Below, piece by piece: positions 2,195 to 47,830 of a DNA stretch of 64,000 nt. The translations under genes were made by a program, and so were the position numbers. The notes below the pieces were generated by a model. That model made no database searches. It saw only the letters and a list, made by a program, of their open reading frames with translations, and was not told the origin of the DNA. Source of the DNA: the human T2T-CHM13v2.0 reference genome, Homo sapiens; the NCBI RefSeq assembly GCF_009914755.1, contig NC_060928.1; one strand, given 5' to 3'. How positions within the stretch are numbered: the first letter of the stretch is position 1; every line of letters begins with the position of its first letter.

Positions 2195-3534
2195 ATCCCA
2201 AATGGGGGTAATTGGCCAAAACAAAGGGGCGACCAGCCCCATGCATGTCCAAAATTCACTGGGCAGTCAAATTTTAAAGCTCCAAAATGATCTCCTTTGA
2301 CTCCATGTCTCACATCCAGGTCACACTGATTCAAGAGGTAGGTTTCCCTGGTCTTGCGCAGCTCCGCCTCTGTGTTTTACAGGGTACAGCCTCCCTCCTG
2401 GCTGACTTTGTGGGCTGGCGTTGAGTGTCTGTGGTTTTCCAGGCACCCGGTACAAGCTGTCAGAGGATCTAGCATTCCAGGGTCTGGAGGACAGTGGCCC
2501 TCTTCTCACAGCTCCACTAGGTGGTGTCCCAGTAGGGACTCTGTGTGGGGGCTCTGACCCCACATTTCTCTTCCACACTGCCCTAGCAGAGGTTCTCCAT
2601 GACAGCCCCACCCCTGCAGCAAACTTCTGCCTGGATATCCAGGTGTTTCCATACATCTTCTGAAATCTAGGTGGAGGTTCCCAAACCTCAATTTTTGGCT
2701 TCTGCACACATGCAGGCACAAAACCATGTGGAAGCTGCAAGGTTTAGGGACTGCACCTTCTGAAACCATGGGACAAGCTGAACCTTGGCCCCTTTTAGCA
2801 GTGGCCCGAGTGGCTGGAGAGCAGGGCACCAAGTCCCTAGGCTGCACACAGCAGAGAGACGCTGGGCCTGGCCCAGGAAACCATTTTTTCCTCCTAGGTT
2901 TCCAGGTCTGTGATGGGAGGGGCTGCCATGAAGACCTATGACATGCCCTGGAGACATTTTTCCCATTGTCTTAAGGTTAACATCGGGCTGCTTGTTACTT
3001 ATGCAAATTTCTGTAGTCAGCTTGAATTCCTCCTCAAAAATGGGTTTTTCTTTTCTATTGCATTGTCTGGCTGCAAATTTTCACAACTTTAATGCTCTGT
3101 TTTCCTTTTAAAATTGAATGCTTTTAACAGCAGCCAGGTCACCTCTTGAATGCTTTGCTGCTTAGAAATTTCTTCCACAAGATACCCTGAATCATCTCTC
3201 TCAAGTTCAAAGTTGCACGAATCTCTAAGGCAGGGGCAAAATGCTTCAGTCTCTGCCAAAACATAACAAGAGTCACCTTTGCTCCAGTTCCCAACAAGTT
3301 CCTCATCTCCATCTGAGACCACCTCAGCCTGGATTTCATTGTCCATATCACTATCAGCATTTTGGCCAAACCATTCAATGAGTCTCTAGGGAGTCCCAAA
3401 CTTTGCCATATTTTCCTACCTTCTTCTGAGCCCTCCAAACTGTTCCAATCTCTGCCTGTTACCCAGTTCCAAAGTCGCTTCCACATTTTTGGGTATCTTT
3501 TCAGCAGTGCCCCACTCTACTGGTACCAATTTAC
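2195..3534 (-). mobile_element. THE1 (MaLR) internal sequence, 3'-truncated
   Basis: Minus strand begins GTAAATTGGTACCAGTAGAGTGGGG next to the LTR. Typical THE1-int pseudo-ORFs are present (MDNEIQAEVVSDGDEELVGNWSKGDSCY...). Confidence 0.92.
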
Positions 3535-18466: not shown

Positions 18467-19024
18467 TGATTAGAGAGCAATCAAATGGATATGAATGATT
18501 ATGAATACAATGAATAATTTCCTCTTAAAACCTTTAAGGAATTCTGAGATTTCTGCTTAGTAATATGTGTTAGACAGATACCATACAGATCTCAGATTAT
18601 CCCTCTCGGCTAGAGTATGTGTGACTTAACGTCCTATCCCAAGGTTAAAATGAGCATTAGTAGTCATTTAATCTGATTATCTTTTCAGTGAGTGAATTCC
18701 CTCGAAAAAATCTGTGCTTGGTGCCCTATAGCCCAGGAACCTATGTAACTAATAATGCTTAAATGCTCTACTCACTTCTATTTAAGGGTAACCCCTACCA
18801 ATGAGTAACAGAAAATTCAAGTCTGGCTCAACCCCCCGGTGTATCAATATATCAACAGCACAGATCAGAAATGACGCAAATACAGCCTTAGGCAGGGAAT
18901 TAATACCTATGATGTAGCTCATTTCATCTCTGAGAAGCTCTGTTAAACTGTTTTACTGGTATCAACCTTGATATTATTCGCTCTAAATTCCCATGGTACT
19001 TCTTCATAAATCTATTTTCATATG

Positions 19025-19192
19025 TCCTTGCTAGTAAAAGTGTGGTGCACAGGCCAGCAGGATCAGCATCACATCAAATTATTAGAAATGCAGAATCTCA
19101 GGCCCCACCCGCAAGCCTACTGATGTAGAATCTGCATTTTAACAAGATCCGGGAGGATTCAAATGCACTTTCAACTCTGACAAGCACCACTA
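19025..19192. mobile_element. MER5A (hAT-Charlie MITE)
   Basis: aagtgtggt..cagcatcac..ttagaaatgcagaatctcaggccccacc..agaatctgcattttaacaagatcc. Confidence 0.88.
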
Positions 19193-19409
19193 TAAGTGCA
19201 CAAAACCTCTTGCTTTAAATGTTCTCCTGTGGAGCTACATTGGAGTGTTTTATTGGCCTCCCTGCATCAAACCTTTTTTTTTCACTCGACCCAATTTGTT
19301 TTCAGAAACCCCTACATTCATTTTCAGTCTATCTAGCCAAGAAGATGGGCAGAGAAACTAAAATCTATTAAGCAGACCAAGCATGTTGCCAGAAGTCCCT
19401 GTGAACTAG

Positions 19410-19550
19410 TTCTTAATGTTAACATTTTACAAATTAGAGAATTAAGTGCTCAGAAGGGTTAAGTGGTGAAGTCAAGATCATGTAACTAAAAAGTGAATAA
19501 ACCAGAATTTAAACCTAATTTCACTAAGCCATATTTTCACACTCTGCCTT
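19410..19550 (-). mobile_element. MIR remnant
   Basis: cattttacaaat..gctcagaagggttaagtg..caagatcat. Confidence 0.6.
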
Positions 19551-19754
19551 TTCTTCCACTGTGGATTTTCCTCATCCCAAACGTCCAGGCTTTCCCTTAA
19601 AACAAATATGTTGTGTTAGTAAGAATAAACTCCAAGGTATTTAAGAACTCTCGTTGACTTGTCTACATTTAAGAAATGAAACTGTAAATTGAGCAAGTCT
19701 GCTTAGCACCTAGCCAAATTAGAGCTTTAGTTCTAACAAATTAAAGTGGCTATT

Positions 19755-19975
19755 AGAGGCACTGTAACGATTAAAGGCATGTGCCATGGAGCCAGACTGC
19801 CCTTGCTGAAAACCACATGACCTTGGCTTGTGGCTTAAATTCTTCTTAGATTGGGATTAATGCTAGTAATTTCACTCAAATGTCTTCTGTGATCATTAAA
19901 GGTATCAATATGTGTTAAGAGCTTACATGCATGTCTAGTAGATGGTAAACACTGAGTATGTCTTAGCTATATTTA
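19755..19975 (+). mobile_element. MIR remnant
   Basis: gaggcactgtaacgattaaaggcatg..tggagccagactgcc..atgaccttgg. Confidence 0.6.
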
Positions 19976-20379
19976 TCACTAAATGGAATTCTTTATTCTG
20001 GCACATCTTCCTCTGTAAATAAAAAAAGGGCCTGTCTTCCACTAGGCATTATTTATATGCTTCCAAATCAATGCAATGTTTGCTTCTTTCTCTTCTATTG
20101 ATCTACTCACATGCACTGACTTCTTATCATGATTAAAAATGAAAAATAAAATCCATCACCAATGTGTGTCTCTTACATACTTTCACCATCACAATCAATT
20201 CATGTGTCCACTGTTAGCACGCTAGGGCAATTAACAAGTAGCTTGAAGATTTTCAAGACAAAAACTGCATGTGAAGACAAAAATGCCTGCCAAGTCCCAC
20301 AGGTGGCACCTTCAGGCTGGCGCCTGACAATCCATCTCAACTCCCAATTTCCAGTCCGCCAGCAAATACCAACAGCTCT

Positions 20380-20945
20380 CATTTCAGAATAAATCCAAAA
20401 CCTGACCACTTACCTACTTTGCTCTGGCCTAAGTCACTATCACGGCATTTGCTCCCTTGCTCCCCTACAGTGTATTCTCACTCGGCAGAAATAATCATCT
20501 CTATATAAAATTCATCACTCATCTACATGACCCCCTCCAGAACACAATCCCCCTTGCTGATCCTCAATCTTGCTAGGCACATTCTGACCCAGGGCATTTG
20601 CCTCTCCCCTTGGCCCTGTCTGTGAAGGCCTTCTCTGCCATCTCTGCAAGATCTGTGCTCAAAGTCACCTTCTCAGTCAGCCCTCGGTGACTTATTTCGA
20701 ACTGCAACAATGTGCCCTATCCCCACACTCTCTAACCCCCAAAACACAGCACTGACCATTTTCTATCATACCAATAGTTTACTTATTTATATGTTATTTG
20801 TCCTTTTTTCTCCCCTCAATAGAAATGTAAACTCCAGGAGACCACAAGTTTTGTACATTCTGCTCATTGCTTTTTAATCTGTGACTAGTATCTTGCTGCA
20901 TATGTCATAAATGCTAACTAAATAGTTGTTAAATGAATAATAAAC
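20380..20945 (+). mobile_element. L2 3' portion
   Basis: CT-rich sense L2 ending ...aatagttgttaaatgaataa. Confidence 0.7.
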
Positions 20946-20977
20946 AGATTTTATAGACATCTCTTAATATTTTAAAT

Positions 20978-21000
20978 TATATATATGTGTATATATACAT

Positions 21001-21055
<55 letters not shown>
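20978..21055. repeat. (TA)n microsatellite with a TACA/TG-interrupted 5' part
   Basis: More than 20 uninterrupted TA units at 21009-21055. Confidence 0.97.
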
Positions 21056-21057
<2 letters not shown>

Positions 21058-21264
21058 CAGTAGGGAAAATTCACAACAGTAATATGCTTTCTTCTAGACA
21101 GAAGTCTAAACCAAAAACCAAAGATTTATAAGAAAAAAGGAAAAACAGAAAAAATATAGCTCCTATTTATAGATGCTAAGCAACTACTGTCTCTTTTCCC
21201 AAAGCAGGGGGGCAAATGAATTTGTGAATTAAAGAGATCACTCTCTCTCAAAGAGGCTACTCTC

Positions 21265-21600
21265 CCTTAATGTGACAGTTTAGCTCAGGAAGTGGATGCA
21301 ATGACCTTGTACAAATGAAATTGCAGGAGCGATTGGCAGAGCAATTACTCATTTGGTCAGGATGCTGGCTAAAAACTCATAATCTTGCAAAAAGCACCTT
21401 GGGAATTTTAATGACCAAAGAGACTCAGCAGTTTAGTTTCAATTCTCTCTGAAAAACATCCAACATTGTACCACTCTCTCCCTCTATTATAATATTCACT
21501 CATGGGCCCAATCTGACTCCTAAATCACCAGGCTCATTATCAGAAGGATTTCAGCCCTTTGCTGCCAGGAGCTGATCGCGTCTGATCCAAATCAACTACT
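21265..21600 (-). mobile_element. AmnSINE1 / Deu-domain SINE relic
   Basis: Minus strand TGGTCATTAAAATTCCCAAGGTGCTTTTTGCAAGATTATGAGTTTTTAGCCAGCATCCTGACCAAAT...CCTGCAATTTCATTTG...CACTTCCTGAGCTAAACTGT matches the recalled Deu-core consensus. The 5S-derived head (toward 21600) is only weakly visible. Confidence 0.7.
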
Positions 21601-22319
21601 GGAACTAAGAAATTAGAATTCATATTCTATCCTCTTCCCATATTTGATTTGGCAATAGTTATCATGCCAACAAGAGGCTTTAGCCTTGATATTTCTTCTT
21701 GTAAACTATGTAACATTTGTTATATTTATGAAAAACTGAATGAAAGTAGGTTATGTCCTGCCTATTAAAAACAGCCTATGGAATATGCAGACAGAACTGT
21801 GAATCCTACAGAAAGTACTAGTTGTTAGTATTACTCACATCTGGCAGAGAAGATAGAGAGGAAACAACTTTAAAAAAACAAGAATTTTAAGGTAAATGCT
21901 GAAATATTTCTTTATCTACCACCTAGAATATGGACTATGTTATCAGAATGAGGCAAAAATAATAGCTTTGGTTTCACAGCATATGGTAAACAGAAATATA
22001 AAAAGTATAACTTAGGAAAAGCAACCAACCCACTTTAACGTATACTATATATTATTTCATCCAAGATGATTTCATTTATCAATAAAAATTATAAACAAGC
22101 ATGCTATAGTGAGGTTTCCACCTTTGTGATGAAAAATGGCCTTGGTATTATTTTATTTAATGAGCATGGCATTAGAAATTATACAGGATTTTAAACAACA
22201 ACCCCTTTTCTGAGGTAATAGTGAGCTCAAATTTGCCTAGGTCCCCGAAGGAAGAGCTACTGTCTTTTCTCCAGAGTTTATCTATTTATCATCAAGACCA
22301 CAGGAACAGAAAGACACGT

Positions 22320-22485
22320 CATGATGAGACAGACAGAGCCCGGGACTGAGAGTTGGACTTGTGTTCTAGTCTTGCTGCCAACAACATACATGACTAAGAT
22401 AATGACTTCACCTCCTAGAAAATGACCTCACTTAGACCAGAAGGAGAGGGCTAGGCAACACAGTATCTCAATCACTCCCAGTTCA
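22320..22485 (+). mobile_element. MIR remnant
   Basis: acagagcccgggactgagagttggacttgtgttctagtcttg..catgact. Confidence 0.5.
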
Positions 22486-25083
22486 TGTTTTCATATGTGT
22501 TAAGACTTTCTTGCCCTTGAAAATTTCCAGACCAAAAGCAGTAAGAAGACATCACCCAGTTTACTTAGGAATGCTTGAAATAATTTTTAATGTTACTTCA
22601 GGGAAAAAGAAGCAGGAGCAGAGAAATCTCAGTTGCAGTGTTAAGAAGGCTGGAAGCAGAAATGGGAATCTCTCTGCTCAGCTAGCCTAGTAAAGCAGTG
22701 TTAATGAGTCAACATTACAAACCTCAAATGACATAAAGAAGGGAGGTCAGCAGAATGGACCAAAGAGATCGCCCTCTCATCTGCTGGGATTCTAGCTCCT
22801 AAGAAGTAAACAAGATAAAAGACTAAAAGGGGTAAAAGCAGGAACGCACACAAGCCCTCTGCCCAGCCATCTCTTATTCAGGATCTGTGTGTATGAACAG
22901 CTGTGGTTCTGTAACCCTCTGCTATGGATGGACTAGCTGCAGGTTACACAGAGGGTTACTTTGGCACTTATTTCCCTACTCAAAAGACTCCACATTTACT
23001 TTTCTACTCAAAACTCTCTTTTAATTTAAAGTTCTCCCCTGACATGGCCTAGCTAATGCACTTTCAGGGGTTCTAGACTCTGCAGACAGTAGTTTTCATT
23101 TGAAACATGGAATTAAACTAAGTAAACATCAAAATGAAGGATGACAATGAAAGACAGGACAACAAGAAAAACTGAAATTCAGGAAATAAAACTGTGTGGT
23201 TTTGTTTCCTTGTTTATTTATTTGTTGCTTAGTTCCTTATTTATGTGTAGATAAATTAATGAGAGGTGGTATCACAAAACAACTGCCTTAGTTGAGGTAT
23301 AACAGCAAAAAGAGGTCTAAGAAACGAGATTGTCACTATCAGCCTTTTCCCCTCAATCCTTTAAACTGAATCCTTGATTCAGTTTAGTGTCATAAGCACA
23401 ATCTGCAGTGTTTCTTCCAAAAACTAAATAATATTTCCTAGGACAAAATATTCTACATTGACTATGATGTCCATATACTGTGGAGAGTGTGAATGTGCAG
23501 CCTTAGGGTAAAAGCAAAGTAGCAATAAAATCAGAAACTGCCTGACTTCAATAAGAGACAGGTTCTGGTATGGTTGACGGACATTCTATGCCTAGAAAGG
23601 GAAATTAATTTACAGTTTCTCGATCTGCTAGTCTCAATAAGTGTGAATAGCAAGTCTCTACGGTCTACACACACACTGTGGATGGTGTGCCATAGAATGC
23701 AGCTGCAAAGCAGGGATTTTCTTTCCATGTTTTTTATCTCACACACTTGTCTATAAATGAAGTCCATGGTGTGCAACCTAATGGCATTTTCCAGATGTTT
23801 CCAACAAGTGTACTAAAAAAAAAAAAAACCTCCCAGAATATTGTCTTGATCTTCAAGGCTCAAGAGGGGATGTACAGCTAAAAAAAAAAAAAAAAGGAAA
23901 AGACGAAAACCCCATATGGTGCCAAATGTTGGCAGCTATCTTCTTTCTTCCCAGACAAAACTCTTAGGTCTTGTGAAAACAACATTTCTTATAAACTGCC
24001 AAAAACAACATAGATAATTGTTGTGATGGCTCTCCTGCACCGACTGCTGCGGCCGCTTTGACTATATCCACATCGAGCTCTGGGATAAAATTAAGAGCCA
24101 ATTTTAAATCTTAAGCCTGAAGGGCCACCTTTAAGAATGCCACCTCCTAGGCTTCTAAAAAAAGTCTTGGCATATTAAGGTGCTTTCCGTTACAATAGGA
24201 GAAAATGCTATTTGTATTTGCCTTCCCTGAACCCTCTGTTTAAATTAGGTTTAAGGAATTAGCACAGCATTGTTTCTAATATAGTAGTAATATAAGCTTA
24301 CTATAGGAAATTTGGAAAATACTATGTATTTTAGAAAGGAAAGTACCAACACCCCCACCGCTGCCCTACAGCCTTTATAGATGAAATACTTACAACATTT
24401 TAGTGTATTTCATTCTAGTTCCTCTACATACATAGAAATATTTATGGGGGCATACATAAAAATATTTAAAATCTTATTCTCACCCTGCTTTTTCACTTAA
24501 CATTAGAGTGTGAGCATTTCTCTGTGGAGGCAGCATTTTGATCATTGCCCCGTATCCCCTGAGTAATGACAGCTCTGTGTAATTCACAGCATTTCTCATG
24601 GGAGGTTTATTGCTCTACTGGCTAGCCAAGGGACCAGTGTGAAATTCACCGAGGTCCTGTGCTGCTGAAATATGAGAAAGGTGAGAAAGGATTATAGCGC
24701 AGGAGAGTGGAAGCCCAAATGTCCATCTCTGAAAACATCCAGTTCCTTGGTGATTTCTTCAAGAAAAGAGAGACTATCTCTTTTGTTAAGAACCAAAAAG
24801 AGATAAATTTACTCACCAACGGTCTCCTACTATTAAGAATTCTTTGAAAGATTCATGATTATTCTTTTAAATACTCAAAGCATTTAAATATGTGTATAAT
24901 ATAGAAATGAGCCATTTATTCTGAATAACAGAGAGAAGTTGAAAAGTATTTATTACCTTCTGCCTAAGGGGGTGATCTCCTTGATTAACGTGCAAAGTAA
25001 TGGGGAAAAAGTCTAATGTGTACTTTTTTTTTTATTTCTTTCAGAGCATTAACCCCATTCTAGTTGGTCATTAAAAAGTAGTA

Positions 25084-46449: not shown

Positions 46450-46567
46450 CGTTCTGTTCCTTGTTGCTGGAAAACTGGAATTTACTACTCAGGTTGGATT
46501 CCGCCTGAGTCCCCTGTCTCTGGCCGGCCAGGGCAGATGTCAGCAGGAGAAGCCCGAAGAGGCTCAT
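46450..46567 (-). CDS. PDGFC: Platelet-derived growth factor C, coding part of exon 1 (signal peptide and start of the mature N-terminus); 118 nt, ends in phase 1
   Basis: Translates as MSLFGLLLLTSALAGQRQGTQAESNLSSKFQFSSNKEQN+G, recognised as the human PDGF-C N-terminus. It is followed by a canonical donor AACG|GTGAGT (plus-strand ACTCAC 46444-46449). The ORF-track extension to 46373 is intronic read-through. Confidence 0.97.
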
Positions 46568-46725
46568 TTGGCTGACTGGGGTGAGAGCTCACTCACGGCG
46601 GGCACTTTGGAAGCAGCGACTCCCGAGTCTCTTTCACCACCGCCAGGGGAAGGCTGCACTGGGGTGGAAGCGCCGAGCCTGCTCTGGCAGCAGAGAATCG
46701 CAGGGTAGTTTCCACATAATCCCAT
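46564..46725 (-). CDS. uORF1, 53 aa (MGLCGNYPAILCCQSRLGASTPVQPSPGGGERDSGVAASKVPAVSELSPQSAK*); its stop overlaps the main ATG
   Basis: ATG at 46725 opens a frame to TGA at 46566-46564, which lies within ATGA of the PDGFC start. Translation in vivo is not shown. Confidence 0.5.
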   Translation of the reverse strand: MGLCGNYPAILCCQSRLGASTPVQPSPGGGERDSGVAASKVPAVSELSPQSAK

Positions 46726-47060
46726 CCAAAACTTTTTCCTAGAGCCCTCTTCTGTGTCTCCAGTTTTTGAAAAGGATCAAAGCAAAACCTGGACCTGAAC
46801 CAGTTTCCCAAGGTTTAAACAAATCCTGAGCTGTGGCGAAGTGGTGGGGGTGGGGGTGAAGGCGAGGGAGGAATGAGGGGGTGGGGACGCGGGGGAGCGG
46901 CGAGAAGTCCCCAGCAAGTTGCTGGGAGCACCTGTCAGTTCGGGGGACAGGACAGAGGCGAAAACTCAAGGGTTGCCCGCAGCCAGACTGGAAGCCAAGT
47001 CGGCGGCGAGCAGTTTCTGATCAATAACAAAGCTGCCAATAGATGCGGCTCTCCGGGCGC
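46568..47060 (-). other. PDGFC: PDGFC 5'UTR part of exon 1 (upstream limit uncertain; the TSS may lie further into the CpG island)
   Basis: Contiguous GC-rich sequence upstream of the ATG. The exact TSS cannot be read from sequence. Confidence 0.65.
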
Positions 47061-47830
47061 CCCTCTCCCCCGCCCCACCCCCCACCCCCGAAGGGGGAGG
47101 GGGAAGAAACAAGGCGAGGGCGCCGCGGCGGGTCCCACGGGCCGGGGCGCCGGAGCGGGGCCGGGGGGCTCCGGGCCGACGGCGGCCCGGGCGCAGGCGG
47201 AGAGAGGCCGCGGGGCTCCCGCTCCTCAGCCCGGAGCGCAGTTGGCCCCGGGTTCGGAGCGCCGCAGCACGGATTCCGGCACCTGGCTTGAGTTTTCCGC
47301 GACCAAAGTTCACCTTGTTCGGGCTCGTCCCCCGCTCCTCAAAGCCTGGGGCAATTCGGCCGCTCGGGGTCACCGCGGGGCTCCGGTTGTTCCCCGTCCC
47401 CTCCCCCCACGCCTCGGGCTCCGCGCTAACCTCGGGGCTACGCGCGGCGTCTCCGCACGGGGTGAAGAGGGAAGGCCGGGGCGGCCGGGAGGATCCGGCT
47501 TGTCCCCTCCCCTTCTCTACCTTCCCCCCGCCGGGCGGCAGACAGGAGGTGGGGGCCGTGGGCCGAGCCCGGGCGGAGCGCGCGCCTGGCGAGCGGGGGC
47601 GGCTCAGCGGCTCTCCCGCAGGCGGCCGATGGGGCGGGCGGGGGTCAGCGCCTCTGGGAGGGGCAGCCCTGGGACGCGTCCGCGCGAGCGGGCTTGGCCG
47701 CCCACTGGCTGTCAACAGGTGCTGCGCAGACAGGGGGTGCTGCGGGACTCGCTGTGGGCAAGACCCCGGTGGCCCAGGAGAGGAACGCGGCCAAGGCGGC
47801 CCCTGCTTTCCCTTCCACGGAACACCTCTA
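46580..47830. promoter_or_regulatory. CpG island / TATA-less PDGFC promoter with GC boxes (Sp1/KLF) and an EGR1 consensus GCGGGGGCG at 47593-47601
   Basis: Very high GC and CpG density against an AT-rich, CpG-depleted background. GGGGCGGG at about 47631; CCCCGCCCC at about 47067. Confidence 0.93.
46634..46717 (-). CDS. uORF2, 27 aa (MWKLPCDSLLPEQARRFHPSAAFPWRW*)
   Basis: ATG at 46717 with A at -3; TGA at 46636-46634. Same frame as PDGFC but stops 66 nt upstream of it. Translation in vivo is not shown. Confidence 0.45.
   Translation of the reverse strand: MWKLPCDSLLPEQARRFHPSAAFPWRW

What the first reader, a model, noticed from the sequence alone, without database searches (positions are those of the whole stretch)
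21265..21600. Ancient AmnSINE1-like relic in PDGFC intron 1: candidate exapted developmental enhancer
Seen: about 200 bp (21270-21460, minus strand) stays colinear with my recalled AmnSINE1 Deu core (GGTCATTAAAGATCCCATGGCACTTTT..GTCCTGGCCAAAT..CTGCAGTTTCAATTG..CACTTCCTGTCCTAAACTGT). Established: AmnSINE1 is a rare amniote-age SINE whose surviving copies are often conserved, and some act as enhancers (Fgf8, Satb2 and Wnt5a loci). Pdgfc loss causes cleft palate in mice. Inference: its legibility implies purifying selection and a possible role as a PDGFC enhancer.
Basis: partly seen in the sequence, partly recalled or inferred. Interest (0 to 1): 0.72.

Follow-up and report, generated by a model that had tools for sequence, protein, structure and literature searches.

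The report
Catalogued ancient SINE with NF-kB peak
A 180-base remnant of an ancient jumping element, already catalogued as AmnSINE1, lies in the first intron of the human growth-factor gene PDGFC; a published map places an inflammation-factor (NF-kB) binding peak on it in blood-vessel cells, so it likely works as a modest vascular control switch, possibly for PDGFC, while a role in face development is untested.

Summary
The repeat is real. A profile of 18 other human copies hits window 21452-21272 (minus) at 49 bits, E 8e-15; the best of 500 shuffles scores 5 bits. It is a headless, tailless Deu-domain fragment; the extension to 21600 is unsupported.

It is already catalogued: a published table lists 'chr4 157866852 AmnSINE1' (hg19), which maps to window ~21365. 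That row is a RELA (NF-kB) ChIP-seq summit in TNF-treated human aortic endothelial cells, one of 33 on AmnSINE1 copies. The copy holds the window's only CAGGAAGTG ETS site and an imperfect kB site.

Best reading: a likely ETS-primed endothelial regulatory element, probably acting on PDGFC 26 kb away; activity and target are unshown. Legibility alone does not show selection: the score fits about 0.4 substitutions per site, and the copy is among the more decayed sampled. Conservation could not be tested. Nothing found supports a craniofacial role. No matching mouse or cow AmnSINE1 summit was seen, and PDGFC is absent from that paper's loop table. An ordinary member of a well-studied class.

The parts
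21272..21452 (-). AmnSINE1 (DeuSINE) fragment, central Deu domain; inferred to be about positions 220-410 of the 570-bp family consensus; internal deletions of 8, 2 and 6 bp in the central block
   Evidence: Profile hit 49.2 bits, E 8e-15; controls; published label at ~21365. Consensus register inferred from the probable AS3_9 copy, model 238-345 = published 391-501. The 5' ~30 bp (21452-21420) align with low confidence.
21365..21365 (.). RELA ChIP-seq peak summit, TNF-treated (45 min) human aortic endothelial cells; position approximate by any hg19/CHM13 indels over 25 kb
   Evidence: PMC12212084 Suppl. Table S7 row chr4 157866852-3 AmnSINE1; mapped through PDGFC c.93 = hg19 157,891,963 = window 46475
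21286..21294 (+). ETS-type motif CAGGAAGTG, likely inherited from the SINE; predicted ERG/FLI1 site
   Evidence: Only occurrence of this 9-mer in the 64-kb window, both strands; same motif at the homologous place in 1 of 18 other copies, L039. Binding not tested; motif label recalled.
21401..21410 (+). Imperfect kB site GGGAATTTTA (8 of 10 against GGGRAWTTCC), two substitutions away from the family majority
   Evidence: the 8-nt half-site occurs 4 times in the window, but 2-mismatch kB matches occur 172 times; family alignment. No site within 1 mismatch of the canonical motif.
21342..21347 (-). TAATTG homeodomain (Msx1-type) core; the family majority has TAATTA here
   Evidence: 39 occurrences in the window, about 10% chance per 181 bp; motif named in PMC5065162. 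Weak.
46450..47463 (-). PDGFC exon 1 and start, nearest promoter (26 kb away), the inferred target
   Evidence: Hub gene table; coding part translated. No contact evidence.

Best explanation
This is a decayed, already catalogued AmnSINE1 fragment that carries a published NF-kB (RELA) binding summit in TNF-treated human aortic endothelial cells and likely acts as a modest endothelial regulatory element, probably on PDGFC. Shown: family identity, truncation, the motifs, the published label and summit. Inferred: an ETS factor (ERG/FLI1) would bind the SINE-inherited CAGGAAGTG and keep the chromatin open; TNF-released RELA would then be recruited to that open site, helped by the imperfect kB half-site about 40 bp from the summit; the element would contact the PDGFC promoter 26 kb away and tune its output. 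My odds: AmnSINE1 fragment 0.97; open, factor-bound endothelial element 0.65; measurable enhancer activity 0.45; measurable effect on PDGFC 0.25.
For: Identity: (a profile of only three copies matched to published AmnSINE1 rows hits the window at E 4e-8). Summit: 1 of 33 human AmnSINE1 rows in Table S7, i.e. about 1-2% of copies; I searched for this coordinate before seeing it. AmnSINE1 is enriched for RELA binding in human and cow, and old RELA-bound TEs carry enhancer marks as a group (PMC12212084). RELA at accessible endothelial chromatin often lacks a canonical motif and is enriched for ETS motifs (PMC7835376); 52-63% of elements gaining p65 were pre-bound by ERG or JUN (PMC5461113). ETS 9-mer unique in the window.
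Against: One summit among 59,735; the source study calls many such events opportunistic or antagonistic. I saw no locus-level ATAC, H3K27ac, ERG or reporter data. PDGFC occurs 0 times in the 9 supplements of PMC12212084, including the HiChIP table of loops to TNF-upregulated genes; only 15% of old-TE RELA sites overlap a loop anchor. None of 9 mouse rows and neither of 2 cow chr17 rows lies at the PDGFC orthologue (orthologue positions recalled; missing TE labels could hide one). Motifs were looked for after the summit was known. IL-1beta lowers PDGF-C in retinal pigment epithelium, so the sign of any effect is open.
Confidence: 0.45

Rival explanations
1. Inert relic: a neutrally decaying AmnSINE1 fragment in the legible tail of its family; the RELA summit is opportunistic binding with no effect on any gene.
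For: Score typical of about 0.4 substitutions per site, close to the recalled neutral depth to the therian ancestor (about 0.4). 18th of 22 in identity, 20th of 22 with seeds excluded. Three deletions in a block that the five copies found by the first motif largely keep. Not among 54 compound conserved loci or 56 SOX2-bound copies. No loop, no mouse or cow match.
Against: If the insertion is amniote-old (recalled depth about 0.6), only 1% of simulated neutral copies score this well. DeuSINE insertions carry more conserved elements than there are insertions (PMC3428314). Loci matched to published conserved copies score 34-40% mismatch on the same measure against 37.7% here.
Confidence: 0.33
2. 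One reading: a mammal-conserved, exapted developmental enhancer that drives PDGFC in palate, face or neural tissue, through homeodomain (Msx1-type) binding at TAATTG.
For: Precedents AS021, AS071 and AS3_9. Pdgfc loss gives cleft palate in mice (PMC8633783). TAATTG at 21347-21342. Family-level conservation prior of roughly 25-40%.
Against: No tissue data found; 0 papers hold both AmnSINE1 and PDGFC in the main text. TAATTG is common (39 in the window). In the palate precedent the AmnSINE1 part alone gave no reporter activity, the Msx1 site lay in another TE, and the knockout had no cleft. No SOX2 or BRN2 row in ES or neural progenitor cells.
Confidence: 0.1
3. Active element whose target is not PDGFC (for example GLRB, about 130 kb away), or which damps PDGFC when TNF redistributes cofactors away from endothelial enhancers.
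For: AmnSINE1 enhancers can act over long distances; endothelial-specific RELA peaks lose ERG and accessibility after TNF; IL-1beta lowers PDGF-C in one cell type.
Against: PDGFC's promoter is by far the nearest; no contact data either way.
Confidence: 0.12

Closest known systems
AmnSINE1 (RepeatMasker class SINE/5S-Deu-L2; DeuSINE superfamily)
   Same: Homologous to the Deu-domain core; labelled AmnSINE1 at this position in the hg19 UCSC annotation used by PMC12212084.
   Different: Only about 180 of 570 bp; no detectable 5S head or 3' tail; central block eroded by deletions.
RELA-bound AmnSINE1 copies in aortic endothelium (PMC12212084)
   Same: It is one of the 33 human rows.
   Different: Not discussed in the passages read; not in the HiChIP target table; no AmnSINE1-labelled summit seen at the mouse or cow orthologue.
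Exapted AmnSINE1 enhancers AS021 (Satb2), AS071 (Fgf8), AS3_9 (Wnt5a)
   Same: Same repeat family, near a developmental gene, retains a TAATT homeodomain core.
   Different: Those are shown conserved non-coding elements with transgenic activity; here neither conservation nor activity is shown, and no neighbouring old TE was detected (weak test).
MER81-derived NF-kB enhancer of IFNGR2 (PMC12212084)
   Same: Ancient TE with a TNF-induced RELA summit near a signalling gene.
   Different: MER81 carries canonical RELA motifs and was validated by deletion; this copy has only an 8/10 site.

Membership tests
AmnSINE1 fragment (RepeatMasker family) | Homology to copies published as AmnSINE1 | tested here: met
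   Profile from L034, L039, L041 hits the window at E 4e-8; L039 alone E 9e-5. These were matched to published hg38 rows by strand, length and recalled build offset. Blind fetch around three published loci: top three hits on the expected strand at E 7e-5, 0.04, 0.15. A fourth prediction (L048) missed.
AmnSINE1 fragment (RepeatMasker family) | Annotated as AmnSINE1 at this position | tested here: met
   Table S7 row maps to window ~21365; PDGFC is also in a gene list of AmnSINE1-containing loci (PMC12015672 Table S1).
AmnSINE1 fragment (RepeatMasker family) | Dispersed multi-copy family | tested here: met
   19 distinct other loci fetched; pattern hits against reversed-pattern controls 2/0, 5/1, 6/0, 17/0, 5/0.
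AmnSINE1 fragment (RepeatMasker family) | Direct match to the Dfam/Repbase model, and better than to AmnSINE2 | not testable with these tools
   No repeat library is held; the published consensus alignments are picture files.
Full-length AmnSINE1 | 5S rRNA-derived head and tRNA-derived segment | tested here: not met
   No Rfam 5S or tRNA hit at E<=5 in 19000-24000; human 5S against 21200-21900 best E 0.46, on the opposite strand; z 0.1-0.5. Weak 5S-like signal (z about 3) upstream in 2 of 20 family loci, L035 and L017. Filed as a fragment only.
Full-length AmnSINE1 | 3' part and L2-related tail | tested here: not met
   Alignment ends at model position 256 of 367 and 375 of 557.
Exapted AmnSINE1 conserved enhancer (AS021/AS071/AS3_9 type) | Constraint across mammals | not testable with these tools
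   No other mammalian genome is held; the divergence proxy is ambiguous.
Exapted AmnSINE1 conserved enhancer (AS021/AS071/AS3_9 type) | Tissue-specific enhancer activity in embryos | not testable with these tools
   No report found.
Exapted AmnSINE1 conserved enhancer (AS021/AS071/AS3_9 type) | Transcription-factor occupancy shared between species | tested here: inconclusive
   Human RELA summit present; no AmnSINE1-labelled summit at the recalled mouse or cow orthologue; unlabelled peaks would not be listed.

The most novel reading that the evidence does not exclude
An amniote-age SINE supplied a ready-made ETS site, later gained a kB half-site by two substitutions, and now is a TNF-responsive endothelial enhancer of PDGFC. 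Since PDGF-CC induces Tnfa and Il1a in brain vessels (PMC7759579), it would close a TNF-PDGFC feed-forward loop at the blood-brain barrier.
Probability: 0.1. Interest if true: 0.55.

Novelty: already known. Interest (0 to 1): 0.25.

Why it matters
What I did not find in print is the link between this copy and PDGFC regulation. A review says the factors governing PDGF-C expression remain to be identified (PMC8633783), and PDGF-CC matters for palate formation and blood-brain barrier opening. A 200-bp element with named motifs is a cheap CRISPRi and reporter target. If active, it would add one more case to an established class and would not change the field.

Tried and rejected
Whole-segment DNA search of the genome found only the locus itself (too insensitive). 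A 14-nt resemblance to 5S rRNA at 21574-21587 was rejected: wrong strand, E 0.08-0.46. Extension of the element to 21600 was rejected; the z 3.8 pairwise score with L040 is a long gappy alignment of AT-rich DNA. A check of anchors by neighbouring MIR elements gave nothing. The predicted published locus 37 was not found at its expected place in a 2-kb stretch, which weakens the L041 anchor. L044 was dropped from the profile as weak (E 5e-4), leaving 18 of 19 loci. A covariance model was built but not used. The founding papers (Nishihara 2006, Sasaki 2008, and one further id recalled as Xie 2006) could not be read, so the list of 124 conserved loci was not seen and may include or exclude this copy. 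Supplements of PMC3234267 were not available. Those of PMC7835376, which hold peak modes and cross-species status and bear directly on this locus, were not read. Percent mismatch to my profile overstates true divergence (L039 35.5% here against 21.5 published; probable AS3_9 38.3% against 28.6%), so it serves for ranking only; the comparison copies are biased towards high identity by the seeds.

Full report
Observation. The minus strand holds four colinear blocks between 21416 and 21275. The first, as a 28-nt pattern with up to 3 mismatches, occurs only here and at one chr2 locus in the 3.1-Gb genome, with 0 control matches. The likeness to that locus continues for 161 columns at 64%. Further motif searches found more copies (5, 6, 17 and 5 matches against 1, 0, 0 and 0 controls), giving 19 distinct fetched loci besides the window. 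One weak locus was dropped. A profile of the other 18 hits 21452-21272 at 49.2 bits, E 8e-15, and nothing else in the window under E 0.27. The best of 500 shuffles scored 5.0 bits; the hit survives masking of the seed (E 2e-5) and restriction to the 13 copies found by a motif that did not retrieve the window (E 4e-12).

Identity. Three collected loci correspond by strand, length and recalled build offset to published RepeatMasker AmnSINE1 rows (PMC5065162 Table S3; PMC13063735 Table S1). A profile of those three alone hits the window at E 4e-8. In 200 kb fetched blind around three other published copies, the top three of five listed hits lay on the expected strands with fitting lengths (E 7e-5, 0.04, 0.15); a fourth prediction missed. 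The direct proof is a published row: Table S7 of PMC12212084 lists 'chr4 157866852 157866853 AmnSINE1' in hg19. PDGFC c.93 is hg19 157,891,963 (PMC10539090) and window 46475, which puts that row at window ~21365, inside the copy. PDGFC is also among 1,416 AmnSINE1-containing loci taken from UCSC (PMC12015672). The copy is therefore already annotated.

Anatomy. The fragment covers the central Deu domain, inferred to be about consensus 220-410 of 570. No 5S head or tRNA segment is detectable, the upstream 21455-21700 gives no hit, and the 3' part is absent. Deletions of 8, 2 and 6 bp fall in the central block. It lies in intron 1, in the sense of PDGFC, 26 kb from the start of the gene.

Selection. 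I could not test conservation. Against my profile the copy shows 37.7% mismatch, 18th of 22; loci matched to published conserved copies show 34-40%, apart from one 37-column hit at 22%. The measure therefore does not separate constrained from neutral copies. In a simple simulation (star tree, uniform rates, 120 runs per level and training setting), neutral copies reached 49 bits in 39-50% of runs at 0.4 substitutions per site, 10% at 0.5 and 1% at 0.6. Recalled neutral depths of the human lineage are about 0.4 (therian ancestor), 0.5 (mammalian) and 0.6 (amniote), so the answer depends on the unknown insertion date and on the bias towards finding the best-preserved copies. Family-level priors favour some constraint: 626 copies overlap conserved elements of about 1,500 to 2,710 (column read without its header), and DeuSINE insertions are rich in constrained segments (PMC3428314). 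I put constraint on this copy at roughly even odds.

Function. Table S7 lists repeats under RELA ChIP-seq summits in TNF-treated aortic endothelial cells. There are 33 human, 9 mouse and 48 cow AmnSINE1 rows; I saw 14 human, all 9 mouse and 40 cow rows, including both cow chr17 rows. None of the mouse or cow rows seen lies at the recalled PDGFC orthologue. The copy contains the only CAGGAAGTG in the window (21286-21294), shared with 1 of 18 other copies at the homologous place, and an 8/10 kB site at 21401-21410; no near-canonical kB or exact AP-1 site lies within 21150-21650. This fits the described mode in which RELA binds chromatin already opened by ETS or AP-1 factors without a canonical motif (PMC7835376; PMC5461113). 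The same source warns that many such events are opportunistic. PDGFC is absent from all 9 supplements of PMC12212084, including the loop table. The copy is not among the 56 SOX2-bound copies in ES or neural progenitor cells nor the 54 compound conserved loci: found in 1 of 3 tables searched. I commit to a likely ETS-primed, RELA-visited endothelial element acting modestly on PDGFC (0.45), against an inert relic (0.33), another target or a repressive effect (0.12) and a craniofacial enhancer (0.10).

Craniofacial reading. Pdgfc loss causes cleft palate in mice (PMC8633783), and the copy has a TAATTG core, but that hexamer occurs 39 times in the window. In the Wnt5a precedent the AmnSINE1 part alone was inactive and the knockout had no cleft. 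No paper held both AmnSINE1 and PDGFC in its main text; the listings of searches on PDGFC enhancers showed nothing on this locus (25 of 113, 20 of 24 and 20 of 15,588 listed).

What I saw of each paper. PMC12212084: outline and abstract, passages, section 5, supplement rows. PMC5065162: passages, section 18, whole Table S3. PMC13063735: passages, all 58 AmnSINE1 supplement rows. PMC12015672: passages, supplement rows. PMC3428314: passages, section 8. PMC3234267, PMC3427154, PMC4824008, PMC3649676, PMC13738879, PMC8633783, PMC10539090, PMC7759579, PMC7835376, PMC5461113: passages only. Nishihara 2006, Sasaki 2008, Hirakawa 2009: nothing, known through citing papers. Recalled and from no call: hg38/CHM13 offsets, mouse and cow PDGFC positions, neutral branch lengths, the ETS/ERG label of the 9-mer.

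Verdict. Real, correctly identified, already catalogued; a fair but unproven regulatory candidate whose evidence is vascular and not facial. Interest 0.25.

Noticed in passing
window 19063-19157 (-): Rfam mir-544 match below the gathering score (49.1 bits, E 6.5e-8); likely a MER5A-type DNA transposon relic (recalled), not in the hub's list of longest masked stretches.
   Followed up: no
window 2207-2305 (-): Second, weak hit to the AmnSINE1 profile in every version of the model (E 0.11-0.62); chance or a far more decayed Deu fragment.
   Followed up: partly
window 20978-21056: (TA)n microsatellite about 215 bp past the 3' end of the fragment; source of the spurious miRNA matches. The DNA between does not match the profile.
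   Followed up: partly
window 21464-21469 (+) and 21537-21542 (-): SOX-type CATTGT and GATA-type TGATAA motifs just 5' of the fragment, completing an ETS/SOX/GATA set typical of endothelial enhancers; both are common in the window (53 and 131).
   Followed up: partly
L003/L033, L006, L040 (G000:C2:144.17, 144.25, 144.57 Mb): Three well-preserved copies of the family cluster within about 400 kb on chr2, probably the GTDC1/ZEB2 region (recalled).
   Followed up: no
L035:~1196-1249 and L017:~1740-1795: Weak 5S rRNA-like stretches at a similar distance upstream of the Deu core in two copies (z about 3), as expected for near-full-length AmnSINE1.
   Followed up: partly
hg38 chr4:155,999,897-156,000,066 (outside the window): Another AmnSINE1 about 0.95 Mb away (by recalled offset) carries a SOX2 summit in both ES and neural progenitor cells (PMC13063735).
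   Followed up: no
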